Position numbers: made by a program. Of a stretch of 64,000 nucleotides of DNA, positions 52,801 to 61,800 are shown one piece after another. Position 1 is the first letter of the stretch. Every line of letters begins with the position of its first letter. Source of the DNA: a candidate division WOR-3 bacterium (GTDB taxonomy: Bacteria > Hydrothermota > 32-111); the NCBI GenBank assembly GCA_037481815.1, contig JBBFKX010000003.1, positions 220,278 through 284,277 of the forward strand, read 5' to 3'.

Positions 52801-55800
52801 TGTCTTCGCTCCAAGAGACGAACCCAGAAGTGCAAATACTCCCGCTGTCAGAGCAACTTTCAGATCAATCATTCTGTTCTGCTTGTATGTTATGGTGGCA
52901 AAAAGGGTTCCAAATGTTGATGAAAATTTGTTTGTTCCAAGAGCAAAGTGCGGAGGAATACCAGCAGCAAGATATGCTGGAACAGAAATGAGTCCTCCTC
53001 CACCAGCGATAGAATCAATAAAACCTGCAATAAAAATTGATGGTAAAATTATCAGAAGTTTTACAACATATTCATTAAAAATCATTGTATTATTTTATGA
53101 AAACTTCTATGGAAATCAACACTTTTTTAAAAAGTTTCAACTCTCAAAAGTTTTTATTTTAAATATATTTGCATTAAATATTTTCCAAAAATGTCAAAAA
53201 GTCAAGCACCGTCCCGGATAAAATTTAAAAATCGGTAGCCGCAACCTTTAGGTTGCGTAAATTTCGCAGGCTAAAGCCTGCGACTACAGGTTTGTAAAAA
53301 TGTCAAAAAGTCAAGCACCGTCCCTGGGTTTAAAATTTATTAATCATATTCGTGGGATCTGCCCCAGTTTGCTTTTTCTAATTCATCATTTAGACTTTCA
53401 AAGAGTGAATTCAATTTTGTCAATACACTTTTTACTTCGCTTTCATTAAACTCATCTCTTTTCTTCGAAATTGTTTCATAGTAAAGTTTTGCCCAATATT
53501 TTCCGCGCTTTCCCCACTTTTTATTGATAAAAATTGAGTTATCATTTTTATATTGTAATTTGTAAATTTTATTTATCAACCTCTTTAATATGTTTCTTCT
53601 TTTTCTTAATGAAGTGTCTTTTTGCTTTGGTTTTCCCAGTTCGATATGAAATCCAATTTCAATTTTTCTTCCTTTTTCTCTTTTATTCACACTCTTTAAC
53701 CAAACTTCATAATGTAAACTTGGATTACCTTTAATCCTTTTAAATTTAACACTTCTGTTATGTTCGATCTTTGCTTCTAAATAACTTTTTACTTTTTCCT
53801 GAATTAAAAACCTTTCAGAAATTTCATTTAAGAATTCTTCTGTGTTATATTTTTTTTCTATACTTATTTCTTTAACCAGAGGTTCATAATAAATTGCCAC
53901 TTTTCCTTTTCTTGCAAAACAAATTCCTATATATTTAGCAAAATCTCCAATATTTTCTTTTACTATTTCTATCGAGTATTCCAATTGTGTTTTAAATTCC
54001 AGGGGTAATACAACATAAAATTTTGCTTTTATTGATCGCTTTTCAAAGAAAAATTGTAATTGATTTAGATTCACCTTTAAAAAATCATTTACAACCTGCA
54101 AAAAATAAAATCCATCATTTTGAATAAGTGACATGTAAGATATAAGTTGACCTATTGCATGTCCTAAACCAGAAATGCTGTTAACATTTTTCCCTCACAA
54201 ATATAAAAACATTTTTCATTGCTATTATAACCTAAAACATCAAGTCGAATGTTGGAAAATTTGAATTCTGTTTGAACAGAATTACATTTTATTTTTCTTC
54301 TAAAATATTTTGCTACTGGTTTATTTAAACTTTTTTCTTCTTTTTGCTCTTTTTTGTTTTTTCTATTCAATTATCCCTCTTCTATTCAGAAATAAAATAC
54401 CCCCAAAATGTCAAAAAGTCAAGCACCGTCCCCAGGTTTTCCAACATTTCTTTAAATTCGATCAACTTTCATCAGGTATATATTTTGTTAAACTGAAAGA
54501 TGGAGATACACATATAAACAGAAAAGTTTTTGTAATAAAATAGTATCTACAGGTTCAGAAAACTTTTAAATATTTGTCATGCATAATAAAAAGGGGTAAA
54601 AATTACCCCTTTTTTAATATTTTTCTATTGTTTCCACAACTCTCAAACTCCTTTATTGATGAGCATTTTCAACTGCTTATTCCCAAAAATGTCAAAAAGT
54701 CAAGCACCGTCCCTGATAAAATTTAAAAATCGGTAGCCGCACCCTTTAGGGTGCGATATGTATTTTATGTTTTTTCTCTCAGGCTAAAGCCTGAGGCTAC
54801 AATTTTTAAATCCTTTTAAAATTCCTCGTTTGGTAGCCGCAACCTTTAGGTTGCGTAAATTTCACAGGCTAAAGCCTGCGCCTACAGGTTTGTAAAAATG
54901 TCAAAAAGTCAAGCACCGTCCCCGAAGTAACTCCACTCTTCGAATTTTGTACTAAGAGGGTTTATTTTTACTTTTATATCTTTTGTTTGAAGTACTATAT
55001 ACTCATCTACAATCTTTTCATAAAAATCATTTTTTAAAAGATCTTTTTTTAATTTTTCTTTTTTATTTTTATCTAAATAAACTGCGGTTTCTAGTTCTAT
55101 CCTTAAAGGAATGAATAAATTGTATAGTTCGAAAAGACATTTAAATTGGAATTCTACTTTCTTTCTTATATTTTCATCTACCATCTTTGTTTTTTCTAAA
55201 TATTCTGCTACATTTTGATAAGTTTTAATCAGGGTTTTTTTGATTTTTCTTATCTCTTCTCTTCTTTCTTTTTCACCAAAAGTTTTATATGTCCACCAGG
55301 CAGAAAAAATCGAAATTATAATGATTGTAAGTATTTGTAGTATTATTAGAATCTCTTTTATAATCGAGAGATGCCTGTTCAACCAACGAAAATTAAGTAA
55401 AATAACAATGCTGAATATAATTAAAATACTCACAATAAAGAAAAAGATGAATAAATTTTTTACTTTTGTTTTCATTAAACCCCTCCTTTATAGATTTTTA
55501 TAAAAAATTATTACTTTACATTTTTTCACTTTTAGTAAATTTAAAAGATTTATTACATTTTATTAGCCATTTAACTACATCAAAATTTTCTCCAACATTT
55601 AAAGAAAGTCCTTTAAAACCAAAAGATGAAAACCCTACTAAATCTGTTTTATATAGCGTCACAATATAAGTGCTATTTTTAAACTCTGTTTTTTTAAAAT
55701 TTATAATTATTTTTGTTTTAAAGTAATAATTTTTTTCTATTAAAAAAACTTTTAATTCTTTGTAGTTTTTAAATTTTTCTTTAATCCAAAAAACATTAAA

Positions 55801-58800: not shown

Positions 58801-61800
58801 ATGATTTTTTAGATATTAATCAAAAAATGTCAAAAAGTCAAGCACCGTCCCCAATAAAGTCATAATTAGAGTGGATCTGCAGGGAGGGTTTCAATTCCTT
58901 AAAGGTATGCTAAAAACATAGACGATTCGTTTTGTCTTTGTAGGGGTGAATTTAGTTTCAATTCCTTAAAGGTATGCTAAAAACACAAAGTACATAGATG
59001 GAAAGGCATATTTTTTACCAATGTTTCAATTCCTTAAAGGTATGCTAAAAACTCCCATTTTACTACTGACAATATGATTTTTAAATTTGTTTCAATTCCT
59101 TAAAGGTATGCTAAAAACAATATTATAGTAGAATATTTAGTAGAATCAAAAAGTGTTTCAATTCCTTAAAGGTATGCTAAAAACAAGAACAAATAGGTGA
59201 TATAAATCTACCTGTTAAAAGTTTCAATTCCTTAAAGGTATGCTAAAAACGAAAAATTTGTATAGACAAATAGAGTCTGAAAGAAAAAGTTTCAATTCCT
59301 TAAAGGTATGCTAAAAACCAATATTTCGTTCTCCTTAACATCCAACCTCTTAAGTTTCAATTCCTTAAAGGTATGCTAAAAACGTGATGCAAAGGAAGGT
59401 ATTAATGAACCTATATATTGTTTCAATTCCTTAAAGGTATGCTAAAAACACTAGTCATCCATTTTGTTGCATACGACTTAGCTGCGTTTCAATTCCTTAA
59501 AGGTATGCTAAAAACCTCCTTGTTTCTAAATTCATCATACATAGACTCATATTCAGTTTCAATTCCTTAAAGGTATGCTAAAAACTTTATAATTTATTTT
59601 TAAGAATTGTTTATTTTTTGTTTCAATTCCTTAAAGGTATGCTAAAAACGATTCCATGAGTTGAAATATTCCTTTAATGATATTTGTTTCAATTCCTTAA
59701 AGGTATGCTAAAAACTGAAAGTGTATAATATATCGATTTGGTTTTGTAAGTTTCAATTCCTTAAAGGTATGCTAAAAACTATTGAAAAAATCACTATAAT
59801 CATTAAAAGAAACAGTTTCAATTCCTTAAAGGTATGCTAAAAACAAGAAACATAACCAATAGCGGTTGAGGGTAATATCTGAGGTTTCAATTCCTTAAAG
59901 GTATGCTAAAAACTCCCACCAGCGTTTGAAGCATACTGAATAGTCTTGTAGTTTCAATTCCTTAAAGGTATGCTAAAAACTTCACTTTTAATCTTCTATA
60001 ATATCTTTCCCTTAAGTTTCAATTCCTTAAAGGTATGCTAAAAACACATCTATATTTTAGATGTAAAATCTTCATTATCCAAAGTTTCAATTCCTTAAAG
60101 GTATGCTAAAAACCTCATGGGCGACAGACCACCCATTACTTTTCTGTAACAGTTTCAATTCCTTAAAGGTATGCTAAAAACTTTAAATCATCCTCAACTG
60201 TTTCGCCATTTTTATTTGCGTTTCAATTCCTTAAAGGTATGCTAAAAACTGAATATAGTTCAATTTGATTTTTCAAAAGTAAAAGTTTCAATTCCTTAAA
60301 GGTATGCTAAAAACATGAGCAACAGACCAACCTTTACCATCGGACAACAGTTTCAATTCCTTAAAGGTATGCTAAAAACCGTGGGCAACAGTCCAACCCG
60401 TATCATTTGATTTCAGTTTCAATTCCTTAAAGGTATGCTAAAAACAAAAGTATATACTTATTTCAGAGGATGAGTTACAACAGTTTCAATTCCTTAAAGG
60501 TATGCTAAAAACCAGTATTTATTAAATGATATTCTTTATATTATTAAGTTTCAATTCCTTAAAGGTATGCTAAAAACATAATTATGCAATTCTGTTTAAA
60601 TGATGTTGATGCCTGTTTCAATTCCTTAAAGGTATGCTAAAAACTAAATAAAATTTTATTTTCTGGTATACCTTTTCCAAGTTTCAATTCCTTAAAGGTA
60701 TGCTAAAAACTTACTTCTTAAATAATATAGAAGAATAAATAAGGAGAAGTTTCAATTCCTTAAAGGTATGCTAAAAACAATAAATCAAATTCATCTGTCA
60801 AATTTAATTTTTCGTTTCAATTCCTTAAAGGTATGCTAAAAACTTTTCCTCCTTGTTATTATATATGGTTTATAAAAAGTTTCAATTCCTTAAAGGTATG
60901 CTAAAAACAATATCCAAGAAATCAAAGCCAATTTTTAAAATATAGTTTCAATTCCTTAAAGGTATGCTAAAAACAAGTTTAAAATAGATTTAGACAATCA
61001 ACCCTTAAAGGTTTCAATTCCTTAAAGGTATGCTAAAAACTCTTTATTCTTTAATAAATAATTTAGACATAAATCTAGTTTCAATTCCTTAAAGGTATGC
61101 TAAAAACTGGCGAGAGAATTTCCCCTGGTAAAATGGCAGAGAGTTTCAATTCCTTAAAGGTATGCTAAAAACTTTAAACCAAAATCCAGCATCTGCATTG
61201 ATTTTTCTAAGTTTCAATTCCTTAAAGGTATGCTAAAAACAAGAACTATTATTTTGATTTTCTATATCAGAACTAGTTTCAATTCCTTAAAGGTATGCTA
61301 AAAACTGATATAAATAGTATATATGAATTGTATTTTGAATCGTTTCAATTCCTTAAAGGTATGCTAAAAACGAATAAACCATCTGTATAAGGATATCCCC
61401 ATATTTTATAGTTTCAATTCCTTAAAGGTATGCTAAAAACTGGGCTAACAAAAGAAGAAATGTATACCTATTTTAAGTTTCAATTCCTTAAAGGTATGCT
61501 AAAAACTATGTAGAAAATCTCTCGCTGTAAAACCTGTATAAGGTTTCAATTCCTTAAAGGTATGCTAAAAACTTCCCAATGTTGGAAAAAGCTATTATTT
61601 TAAAATTGTTTCAATTCCTTAAAGGTATGCTAAAAACTTTGCCACAAAATATTGATGAAGTGAAGAAACATTAGTTTCAATTCCTTAAAGGTATGCTAAA
61701 AACTCAATAACAACAAATGCGGACTCATCAGGGTTATTATGTTTCAATTCCTTAAAGGTATGCTAAAAACTGTAATTCCACCAAGTAGGTTTTTTATTGT

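What a model noticed while it worked through the whole genome (the two positions that open the first line are those of the whole stretch)
53187..58852. Repeat-delimited cassette array beside CRISPR array 2, shuffled relative to a congener
Nine same-orientation copies of the 30-nt repeat cut the 5.7 kb between CRISPR array 2 and the TauE gene into cassettes of 0-2 genes, among them a DUF2130 gene truncated exactly at a copy and a PADLOC candidate defence ATPase. The syntenic array of G002 holds four of the same cassettes in another order plus others, with homology beginning or ending at the copies, so the copies mark units of rearrangement.
Evidence so far: Map: calls 38, 45. Gene content: calls 23, 125. 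G002 array and content: calls 40, 53, 125. Block homologies (A 93%, B 91/88%, C 82/73%, D 90%, flank 91%) and orders A-X-B-C-D-E v. C-A-B-D-B': call 46. Only two Xer-like tyrosine recombinases and no Tn3 transposase in G000.
(Added by a program. Inside this text positions count along the whole contig: contig position 220,278 is position 1 of the stretch shown here. "Call 12" and the like, gene names such as g00115 and contig names such as C1 are that model's own, and its searches are not shown. The text may have been shortened before it was handed on; [...] marks where a part breaks off. The agent that wrote the report below was given it as the finding of a first reader that could run no searches.)

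Follow-up and report, generated by a model that had tools for sequence, protein, structure and literature searches.

The report
Transposase-end repeats delimiting gene cassettes
A 28-base repeat that is the end sequence of a single-copy, domesticated-looking transposase gene marks the exact places where accessory and defence genes are gained and lost next to a CRISPR locus, which hints at a so far undescribed way of capturing gene cassettes.

Summary
Nine perfect, same-strand copies of AAAATGTCAAAAAGTCAAGCACCGTCCC lie at 53188-58851, between TauE and the trailer end of a type I-B CRISPR array.

The repeat is the terminal inverted repeat (TIR) of a single-copy RAYT-like Y1/HUH transposase gene, a "TIRtron" (Di Nocera 2013). 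G000 has 35 copies. Related copies occur in MAGs labelled with several phyla.

One congener has a single TIR between TauE and the CRISPR array. G000 has 9 there and G002 has 7. The TIR-less congener has no island.

A metagenome contig 99.6% identical to G000 carries TIR-5.5 kb-TIR where G000 and G002 have one TIR. This is a recent gain at a TIR.

"Shuffled" is overstated. The well-conserved blocks X, B and D are collinear. Only block C (73-82%) and a paralogue B' sit elsewhere.

Breakpoints and truncated genes cluster at the CCCC end. TIRs also abut both CRISPR arrays and bracket other defence islands.

The catalyst is not shown: the transposase or homologous recombination. This is a new variant of a known kind.

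The parts
53188..53215 (+). TIR copy R1. Its inner (AAAATG) side faces TauE.
   Evidence: Exact 28-mer. The flank plus R1 is 95.5% identical to G002.
53216..53296 (+). Non-coding cassette: a doublet of GTAG-tagged REP hairpins (REPIN-like).
   Evidence: GTAG plus perfect palindromes. DNA fold -18.3 kcal/mol, z -4.1.
53297..53324 (+). TIR copy R2
53340..54370 (-). Cassette A: ORFs of 264 aa (53340-54134) and 68 aa (54164-54370).
   Evidence: ORFs. No Pfam, PHROG or NCBIfam hit. The 68-aa ORF hits PADLOC PDC-S18, E 3.6e-7. The 264-aa ORF has a weak PD-(D/E)XK lead, score 0.88. No DNA match in G001 or G003-G005.
54405..54432 (+). TIR copy R3
54433..54685 (+). Cassette X': remnant of the 3' end of a 2.7-kb cassette of G002 (809-aa LVIVD/T9SS protein), with a terminator-like hairpin at 54588-54614.
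   Evidence: 89.8% over 284 nt to G002. Homology starts about 11 nt after R3. Hairpin.
54686..54713 (+). TIR copy R4
54714..54894 (+). Non-coding cassette: two GTAG-REP doublets.
   Evidence: (D7-D9)
54895..54922 (+). TIR copy R5. It overlaps the stop of the 188-aa ORF.
54909..55923 (-). Cassette C: ORFs of 188 aa and 135 aa.
   Evidence: 72.7% and 82.4% to the G002 cassette, which holds an extra AbiJ-like gene between them.
56177..56204 (+). TIR copy R6
56259..57434 (+). Cassette B: AAA_14/DUF4143 ATPase (PADLOC PDC-S01).
   Evidence: 90.6% to G002 B and 87.6% to G002 B'.
57484..57511 (+). TIR copy R7
57582..58385 (-). Cassette E: ORFs of 187 aa and 64 aa. Function unknown.
   Evidence: No counterpart in the G002 array.
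58490..58517 (+). TIR copy R8
58496..58783 (-). Cassette D': the 5' 95 codons of a DUF2130 gene, cut about 10 nt from the CCCC end of R8.
58824..58851 (+). TIR copy R9, 36 nt from the last (trailer-end) CRISPR repeat.
   Evidence: G003 has the same junction, with a 33-nt gap.
58888..63619 (-). CRISPR array 2 (72 repeats), read on the - strand from a leader at 63620-63778.
   Evidence: Rfam RF01315. cas2 at 63779-63970(-). G003 has cas6-cas8b-cas7-cas5-cas3-cas4-cas1-cas2 at the syntenic place.
52315..53085 (-). TauE/SafE, the conserved flank gene.

Best explanation
The 28-nt repeat is the terminal inverted repeat (TIR) of a "TIRtron". This is a single-copy gene for a RAYT-like Y1/HUH tyrosine transposase (TIRYT, about 305 aa) flanked by two inverted copies. 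Solo copies have spread to about 35 intergenic sites.

The array in the window grew from one ancestral TIR between TauE and the trailer of a type I-B CRISPR-Cas locus. DNA segments were inserted repeatedly at a resident TIR. Each insertion left a TIR on both sides, in direct orientation. This gives TIR-cassette-TIR-cassette, much as an integron or an IS26 array grows.

Segments are later lost or truncated from the CCCC (outer) end of a TIR.

I take the TIRYT enzyme as the most likely catalyst. It would be recruited to the TIR and would cut and join single strands at or just beyond the CCCC end.

Shown: the identity of the repeat, its coupling to the TIRYT gene, gain and loss exactly at TIRs, and the polarity of breakpoints.

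Inferred: a circular or single-stranded intermediate, and TIRYT as the catalyst.
For: Repeat identity
- The Y1_Tnp gene is flanked by inverted copies about 957 nt apart in G001, G002, G003 and G004. Compare the coordinates with those.
- G000 has the gene on the short contig C7, next to a copy.
- G005 has neither the gene nor the repeat.
- The protein is intact, with HUH (HFHLV) and the Tyr motif IIYTLLNPV.
- A 41%-identical homologue in another MAG is flanked by the same TIR core.
- The TIR is read in different frames at the two C-termini, so its conservation is at the DNA level.

Growth from one TIR
- G003 has TauE, one TIR, then the CRISPR array after 33 nt.
- G000 has the TauE side at R1 and the CRISPR side at R9.
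- All 9 of 9 copies in G000 and 7 of 7 in the G002 array point the same way. Dispersed copies point both ways.

Recent gain
- Contig L108 is 99.57% identical to G000 over 6029 nt up to a TIR.
- It then holds 5539 nt (two genes) and a second TIR.
- It then matches the G000 outer flank at 97.5% over 158 nt, TIR included.
- G000 and G002 have one TIR there.

Second site: G002 has TIR-2.5 kb-TIR where G000 has one TIR at C1:297030. G005 is empty there. G003 and G004 hold other inserts with TIRs.

Polarity
- Of 41 G002 copies, 16 keep both flanks next to the same G000 copy.
- 4 keep both flanks, but next to different copies.
- 12 keep only the inner flank.
- 2 keep only the outer flank.
- 7 keep neither.
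- Three of three truncated genes abut the CCCC end at about 10 nt.
- Simple TIR x TIR recombination would give equal numbers of inner-only and outer-only copies.

Solo copies reach new sites. The upstream copy at C1:279998 is present in G000, G001 and G002 only. Short-repeat recombination cannot do this.
Against: - No enzyme activity is shown.
- The TIR has no hairpin of its own (z -1.1 and -0.8). Known Y1 enzymes recognise hairpins.
- 29-36 identical bases could support rare RecA recombination, which gives the same TIR-cassette-TIR product.
- The 12 v. 2 asymmetry is not made of independent events. Seven of the 12 lie in one array, and at least one "neither" is a filter miss that should count as outer-only.
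- One gene flanked by two TIRs (372 aa, C1:280050) is resident in G003 and G004 with only one TIR. So some "cassettes" are just genes between independently inserted copies.
- G000 is a fragmented MAG, and its TIRYT gene is cut by a contig end.
- The four copies of the second G002 array all carry the rarer AAAAAGTC variant. This fits local duplication better than import of a TIR with each cassette.
Confidence: 0.5

Rival explanations
1. Passive repeats. The TIR copies are dispersed REP/MITE-like relics. Cassette gain, loss and duplication happen by host homologous recombination (or replication slippage) on the 29-36 identical bases, without the transposase.
For: - The TIR-cassette-TIR product with one TIR at the empty site is exactly what Campbell-type recombination or a loop-out deletion gives.
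- The copies are perfectly identical.
- A role of REPs as recombination sites has been proposed before (PMC3390384, passages read).
Against: - This predicts equal numbers of inner-only and outer-only flank losses. The observed counts are 12 v. 2.
- It does not explain genes cut about 10 nt beyond the CCCC end where the other end of the deletion has no TIR.
- It does not explain how solo copies reach new sites.
- 28-36 nt is at the lower limit for RecA recombination (my own knowledge, not tested here).
Confidence: 0.3
2. No cassette mobility at this locus. An ordinary accessory island acquired by other means was later peppered with independently inserted solo TIRs. Differences from G002 reflect differential loss from a longer ancestral array.
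For: - Solo copies do insert beside resident genes.
- X, B and D are collinear in G000 and G002. C is only 73-82% identical, as expected for old paralogues.
- An ancestral order B'-X-C-B-E-D-C would give both present orders by deletions alone.
Against: - 9 of 9 copies share one orientation, while dispersed copies do not.
- G003 has one TIR whose two sides match the outer sides of R1 and R9. So the whole 5.6 kb lies "inside" a duplicated TIR.
- L108 shows gain of a segment together with a second TIR in a 99.6%-identical strain.
Confidence: 0.12
3. The repeat is mainly a regulatory element: a portable promoter or an operator bound by the C-terminal part of TIRYT. Its position at cassette borders reflects gene regulation, not recombination.
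For: - On the - strand the TIR carries TTGACT/TTGACA.
- At R9 this forms TTGACT-17-TAATAT, followed by a ribosome-binding site and the start of the DUF2130 fragment.
- The same 5' region is 77% identical to that of the TIRYT gene in G002.
Against: - Promoter-like sites in the region are no more frequent than in shuffles (33 v. 31.5).
- Only 3 of 9 copies (R1, R3, R9) pair with a -10 box.
- Copies lie in every orientation relative to neighbouring genes.
- Regulation does not explain the TIR-bounded indels.
Confidence: 0.05
4. Assembly artefact. The order of the segments is a chimera made by joining reads of co-existing strains at the short repeat.
For: - G000 is a MAG.
- 12 of its 17 short contigs are centred on a TIR.
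Against: - The repeat is only 28-36 nt.
- The same blocks with the same TIR borders occur in the independent assembly G002.
- L108 returns to the G000 flank after its second TIR. A chimera would not do this.
Confidence: 0.03

Closest known systems
TIRtrons / TIRYT (Di Nocera et al. 2013, PMC3733652, passages read; Quentin et al. 2018, bioRxiv 10.1101/279083, passages read)
   Same: - A single-copy RAYT-like Y1/HUH gene flanked by terminal inverted repeats that start with GGGG.
- The TIR overlaps the 3' end of the gene.
- There is a moderately abundant family of TIR copies found as singles, dimers and clusters.
- The protein has a long C-terminal extension.
   Different: - The outer motif is GGGGACGG, against the consensus GGGGWSAS.
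- Solo, same-orientation copies delimit protein-coding cassettes and bracket defence islands and a whole CRISPR-Cas locus.
- Neither feature appears in the passages I read or in the full-text searches.
REP / RAYT / REPIN systems
   Same: - A domesticated single-copy HUH transposase with a dispersed family of short intergenic repeats.
- True GTAG-tagged hairpin doublets are present here too, always next to TIRs.
   Different: - The main repeat is not a palindrome.
- The copy number is about 35, not hundreds.
- In Pseudomonas, REPs mark stable regions and variable regions are "REP deserts" (PMC3390384). Here the copies concentrate in the variable islands.
Integron cassette arrays
   Same: A one-orientation array of promoter-poor cassettes of 0-2 genes, separated by a recombination-site-like repeat, that grows at a fixed chromosomal site.
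   Different: - No IntI. There are only two Xer-like recombinases, and neither is adjacent.
- The repeat is a perfectly conserved, non-palindromic 28-mer, not a structured attC.
- Gene orientation within cassettes varies.
IS26 translocatable units and arrays of directly oriented IS26 (recalled, not read here)
   Same: A segment plus one copy of the element inserts next to an existing copy. This gives direct-repeat arrays without a new target duplication.
   Different: The repeat unit here is 28-36 nt, with the enzyme encoded once elsewhere, and the enzyme is HUH rather than DDE.
MITEs
   Same: In other phyla the same TIR forms short inverted doublets in several sub-families.
   Different: In this genus most copies are solo. 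They are not paired ends of one small element.

Membership tests
TIRtron / TIRYT | Y1/HUH transposase gene with the HUH and catalytic Tyr motifs | tested here: met
   PF01797 E 3.5e-12 and NCBIfam REP_Tyr_transpos E 2.9e-16, the latter below its cut-off. HFHLV and IIYTLLNPV are present.
TIRtron / TIRYT | Gene flanked by terminal inverted repeats rather than REP hairpins | tested here: met
   Inverted copies lie on both sides in G001-G004 and in G041. In G000 only one side is on contig C7.
TIRtron / TIRYT | Outer TIR motif GGGGWSAS | tested here: inconclusive
   The outer end is GGGGACGG, which matches 7 of 8 positions (G where A is expected at position 7).
TIRtron / TIRYT | About one gene copy per genome, with a dispersed TIR family | tested here: met
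   One Y1_Tnp match each in G000, G002, G003 and G004, two in G001 and none in G005. TIR copies number 35, 26, 38, 20, 16 and 0 in G000-G005.
TIRtron / TIRYT | C-terminal helix-turn-helix domain (subclass 2.1 of Quentin et al.) | tested here: inconclusive
   There is a 165-aa C-terminal extension, but no Pfam HTH hit at E <= 0.01. No PDB sequence match. No structure was predicted.
REP (GTAG-tagged palindromes) | GTAG tetranucleotide followed by a GC-rich palindrome, often in inverted doublets | tested here: met
   This applies to the hairpin modules only. There are 11 perfect GTAG hairpins, all 23-333 nt from a TIR. Fold z -4.1. The 28-nt repeat itself does not meet it.
Integron | IntI integrase next to attI and the array | tested here: not met
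   Only two PF00589 matches, at C2:70200 and C3:235244 (window 14967-15476). Neither is next to the array.
Integron | attC sites: imperfect palindromes conserved in structure, not in sequence | tested here: not met
   The repeat is identical in sequence in all 9 copies and is unstructured.
CRISPR array | Regular repeat-spacer period | tested here: not met
   Start-to-start spacings are 109, 1108, 281, 209, 1282, 1307, 1006 and 334 nt. No Rfam CRISPR hit on these copies.

The most novel reading that the evidence does not exclude
A domesticated HUH (RAYT-like) transposase runs an integron-like capture system. It binds its 28-nt TIR wherever a solo copy sits and inserts TIR-tagged DNA at the CCCC end. 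In this way it builds arrays of defence and surface-protein cassettes, and can bracket and exchange whole islands such as a complete type I-B CRISPR-Cas locus or a type III R-M with DarTG. This would give RAYT/TIRYT genes, whose host function has been an open question, a concrete role as organisers of the accessory genome.
Probability: 0.3. Interest if true: 0.85.

Novelty: new variant of a known kind. Interest (0 to 1): 0.66.

Why it matters
RAYT/TIRYT genes are widespread, single-copy and vertically kept. What they and their repeats do for the host is unresolved.

Here the repeats sit exactly at the borders of recently gained segments, of truncated genes and of defence islands. These include both CRISPR arrays, a whole CRISPR-Cas locus in a congener, and an R-M/DarTG island.

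That makes one function testable: site-directed capture and turnover of accessory genes. It would also add an HUH-type route to how defence islands are assembled, beside integrons, IS26-type units and phage-satellite hotspots.

On the practical side, the 28-mer marks variable loci in these uncultured lineages. It also explains why their assemblies break there.

Tried and rejected
- Integron: rejected. There is no IntI and no attC-like structure.
- Second CRISPR-like array: rejected. The spacing is irregular.
- Known RNA family: none besides the CRISPR repeats, apart from two chance-level hits.
- Phage attachment site: 0 matches of the TIR core in viral contigs.
- Promoter idea: promoter-like sites are not above chance.
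- Replication-strand bias of copies: orientations are mixed along the contigs, so I did not pursue it.
- PDB sequence search with TIRYT: 0 hits.
- PHROGs on the 8 cassette ORFs: 0 hits.
- Atlas on the 264-aa ORF: only a sub-threshold PD-(D/E)XK lead.
- Sequencing runs: 16 rows from 12 studies hold part of the stretch. Four hold at least half of the sampled words (0.95, 0.64, 0.58, 0.51). No RNA holder is listed.
Population-level junctions stay untested.
- The metagenome scan for the exact 28-mer gave only 5 loci.

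
Full report
**Observation.** The 28-mer AAAATGTCAAAAAGTCAAGCACCGTCCC occurs nine times, without a mismatch and always on the + strand. The copies start at 53188, 53297, 54405, 54686, 54895, 56177, 57484, 58490 and 58824. None was found in 100 shuffles. The copies divide the stretch between TauE (52315-53085) and a 72-repeat CRISPR array (58888-63619) into eight segments holding 0-2 ORFs each. The finding's description of the sequence is correct.

**What the repeat is.**
- G000 has 35 copies with up to 3 mismatches: 23 on its three large contigs and 12 on 12 of its 17 short contigs. 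All 23 copies on the large contigs are intergenic or overlap a gene end by a few bases.
- Four of five congeners have 16-38 copies. G003 and G004 mostly carry the variant TGTCACACTGTCAAGCACCGTCCC. G005 has none.
- A Pfam Y1_Tnp search gives one match each in G000, G002, G003 and G004, two in G001 and none in G005.
- In G001-G004 that gene lies between two inverted copies of the repeat, about 957 nt apart, with the GGGG/CCCC ends outward (coordinates).
- In G000 the gene sits on the 751-nt contig C7 beside a copy and is cut by the contig end.
- The 305-aa protein has the HUH motif (HFHLV) and the Tyr motif (IIYTLLNPV). Its best NCBIfam model is the REP-associated tyrosine transposase, below cut-off. 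Its last codons are encoded by the repeat.

This is the architecture that Di Nocera et al. named TIRtron/TIRYT. Their TIRs start with GGGGWSAS and form families of single, dimeric or clustered copies (PMC3733652, passages; bioRxiv 10.1101/279083, passages). Here the outer end is GGGGACGG.

**Wider distribution.**
- The MAGs are labelled Aminicenantes, Bipolaricaulota, TA06, Stahlbacteria, Elusimicrobia, Omnitrophota and Brevinematales.
- In those MAGs the copies are mostly short inverted doublets, i.e. MITE-like.
- In one such MAG a 968-nt pair encloses a TIRYT homologue that is 41% identical to the G002 protein.
- The TIR is read in another frame at its C-terminus, so the repeat is conserved as DNA, not as coding sequence.
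- No copy was found in viral contigs.

**Anatomy of the array.** In + strand order:
- R1
- a doublet of GTAG-tagged hairpins
- R2
- cassette A (264 aa + 68 aa)
- R3
- X', a 253-nt remnant
- R4
- two hairpin doublets
- R5
- cassette C (188 aa + 135 aa)
- R6
- cassette B, the AAA_14/DUF4143 ATPase (PADLOC PDC-S01, E 2.8e-64)
- R7
- cassette E (187 aa + 64 aa)
- R8
- D', the first 95 codons of a DUF2130 gene
- R9
- 36 nt, then the CRISPR array

cas2 lies at 63779-63970(-). So the leader is at the high-coordinate end and R9 lies just past the trailer-end repeat.

The hairpin modules are classical REPs: GTAG plus a GC-rich palindrome. All 11 perfect ones in G000 lie 23-333 nt from a TIR. The R1-R2 module folds at -18.3 kcal/mol, z -4.1. 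The TIR itself is unstructured.

**The same site in congeners**.
- G005, which has no TIRs and no TIRYT, has TauE directly beside the next core genes.
- G003 has TauE, one TIR, then 33 nt and the same CRISPR array. A complete type I-B cas operon follows (cas2 to cas6), then an inverted TIR, then the core genes.
- G004 has TauE, one TIR, 4.9 kb of unrelated genes (ankyrin protein, IS110 transposase), an inverted TIR, then the core genes.
- G002 has TauE and seven same-orientation copies, one of them degenerate. Then come unrelated genes, including an Eco57I-like methylase and an SNF2/PLD helicase. The island ends with an inverted TIR that is itself part of a four-copy array.

So the island is always bracketed by TIRs whose CCCC ends point inward, and its content is different in each genome. 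In G000 the TauE-side flank of the single G003 TIR is found at R1, and its CRISPR-side flank at R9. The 5.6 kb therefore lies inside a duplicated TIR.

**G000 against G002**.
- The TauE flank plus R1 is 95.5% identical.
- B matches two G002 cassettes, at 90.6% and 87.6%. The match starts at the first base of the TIR.
- X' matches the last 284 nt of a 2.7-kb cassette (809-aa LVIVD/T9SS protein) at 89.8% and ends at the TIR.
- D' matches the 5' end of the full DUF2130 cassette at 93.2% and ends at the TIR.
- C matches at only 72.7% and 82.4%. The G002 version holds an extra AbiJ-like gene.
- The orders are X'-C-B-E-D' in G000 and B'-X-B-D-C in G002.

The three well-conserved blocks X, B and D are collinear. 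Only C and B' are displaced, and C is more diverged than the orthologous flanks (85-95%). "Shuffled" is therefore too strong. Cassette-wise gain, loss and truncation on a collinear backbone fits better.

The cassette genes of the window have no DNA match in G001, G003, G004 or G005, apart from hairpin and remnant pieces and one 68% DUF2130 match.

**Evidence that segments are gained at a TIR.**
- The cleanest case is metagenome contig L108. It is 99.57% identical to G000 C2:121391-127419 up to and including a TIR.
- It then holds 5539 nt with two genes (1030 aa, and 624 aa with FG-GAP and a T9SS tail) and a second identical TIR.
- It then matches the G000 outer flank at 97.5% over 158 nt, TIR included.
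- G000 and G002 both have a single TIR there, with both flanks conserved. By parsimony the segment and the second TIR were gained recently.
- Because the contig returns to the G000 flank after the second TIR, it is unlikely to be a chimera.
- A second site is G000 C1:297030. G000 has one TIR, G002 has TIR-2.5 kb (722-aa LVIVD protein)-TIR, and G005 is empty without a TIR. G004 has a TIR plus 1.9 kb, and G003 has 4.85 kb with two TIRs.

**Evidence against a pure cassette view.** The 372-aa gene between the copies at C1:279998 and C1:281214 is also present in G003 and G004 with only the downstream TIR. Solo copies therefore also insert beside resident genes, and two flanking TIRs do not by themselves define a mobile cassette.

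**Polarity.** For 41 TIR copies of G002 I asked whether 400 nt on either side have a match in G000 that abuts a TIR.
- 16 keep both sides at the same G000 copy.
- 4 keep both sides, but at different copies.
- 12 keep only the inner (AAAATG) side.
- 2 keep only the outer (CCCC) side.
- 7 keep neither.

At least one "neither" is a filter miss that should count as outer-only. Seven of the 12 inner-only copies lie in one array, so these are not independent events.

All three truncated genes seen (X', D' and a paralogue in G002) are cut about 10 nt beyond the CCCC end of a TIR. Recombination between two TIRs predicts equal numbers of inner-only and outer-only copies. The excess at the CCCC end suggests an end-specific process.

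**Association with defence loci.**
- G000 has two CRISPR arrays. Both have a TIR 27-36 nt beyond the last repeat, with the GGGG end facing the array. In array 1 that last repeat is degenerate.
- In G000 an inward-facing pair at C1:43769(+) and C1:50251(-) brackets a type III R-M system with DarT and a macro-domain DarG-like gene inside it.
- G002 holds T9SS surface proteins at that site.
- In Pseudomonas, by contrast, variable regions are "REP deserts" (PMC3390384, passages).

**Mechanism.**
- Shown: the repeat is the TIRYT gene's own end. Repeat and gene occur together or not at all in the six genomes of the genus. Segments are gained with a second TIR at a resident TIR. Arrays are uniform in orientation, while dispersed copies are not.
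- Inferred: a DNA piece carrying one TIR, as a circle or a single strand, is joined at a resident TIR. TIRYT would do the cutting and joining near the CCCC end, perhaps recruited by its C-terminal extension.
- I give this about 0.5.
- Homologous recombination on 29-36 identical bases gives the same product and is the main rival (0.3). It does not explain the polarity or the spread of solo copies.
- Other rivals: independent solo insertions plus differential loss (0.12), a mainly regulatory role (0.05; promoter-like sites are not above chance), and assembly chimerism (0.03).
- One unexplained detail: all four copies of the second G002 array carry the rarer AAAAAGTC variant. This points to local duplication of the resident TIR.

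**Novelty.** TIRtrons and their TIR families are in print (2013, 2018). Full-text searches for TIRYT, TIRtron, and RAYT with "gene cassette" found no report of such repeats delimiting gene cassettes or bracketing CRISPR-Cas or defence islands. Supplements of those papers were not read. I rate it a new variant of a known kind.

**Limits.** G000 is a fragmented MAG. Only G002 and one metagenome contig give close comparisons. No activity of the enzyme is known.

Noticed in passing
G000 contigs C4-C20 (outside the window): Twelve of the 17 short contigs (540-1010 nt) carry one TIR near their middle. They match TIR sites in G002 C1:1.047-1.25 Mb at 85-93%. The DNA between those sites has no counterpart in G000. 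The bin seems to have recruited only TIR-containing fragments of a poorly assembled region. That region includes the TIRYT gene (C7).
   Followed up: partly
G000 C3:176055-178058 (outside the window), locus L103: CRISPR array 1 has 36-nt repeats of another family, and its last repeat is degenerate. It is followed after 27 nt by an inverted TIR doublet (copies at 177771- and 178031+). In G002 this doublet is duplicated, with 2.3 kb between the copies.
   Followed up: partly
G000 C1:43769-50278, locus L104: A DarT/macro-domain (DarTG-like) pair is embedded between the Res and Mod genes of a type III R-M system. The whole is bracketed by inward-facing TIR variants.
   Followed up: partly
Loci L003, L064, L066 and (genome G043): In one MAG labelled Bipolaricaulota, 7 of 7 complete inverted TIR pairs have a start-to-start spacing of 87-88 nt. 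Yet the three interiors I read are unrelated in sequence. In two other MAGs the interiors fall into related sub-families.
   Followed up: no
G000 C2:430002-430050; C1:97046-97101; G002 loci L081 (near 1690) and L078 (near 5590): Partial duplications of the last 9-14 nt of the TIR lie just beyond the CCCC end. Each is flanked by 8-10-nt direct repeats. They look like aborted or repeated events at that end.
   Followed up: no
G002 locus L081:3087-4340(-) and 4309-5226(-): The TIR contains an ATG. A 417-aa glycosyltransferase ORF starts inside a TIR (MSKSQAPSP...), while the TIRYT gene ends inside the same copy in another frame.
   Followed up: no
G000 contig C12:1-274: A TIR copy lies 17 nt after the 3' end of a tRNA-like sequence ending ...CCTCCACCA. 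I did not run the tRNA finder.
   Followed up: no
window 57512-57551: About 40 nt after R7 recur after TIR copies in G002 and G001 at 81-85%. This suggests a longer sub-family of the repeat.
   Followed up: no
window 14967-15476: One of the two Xer-like tyrosine recombinase genes of G000 lies in the window, far from the array.
   Followed up: no
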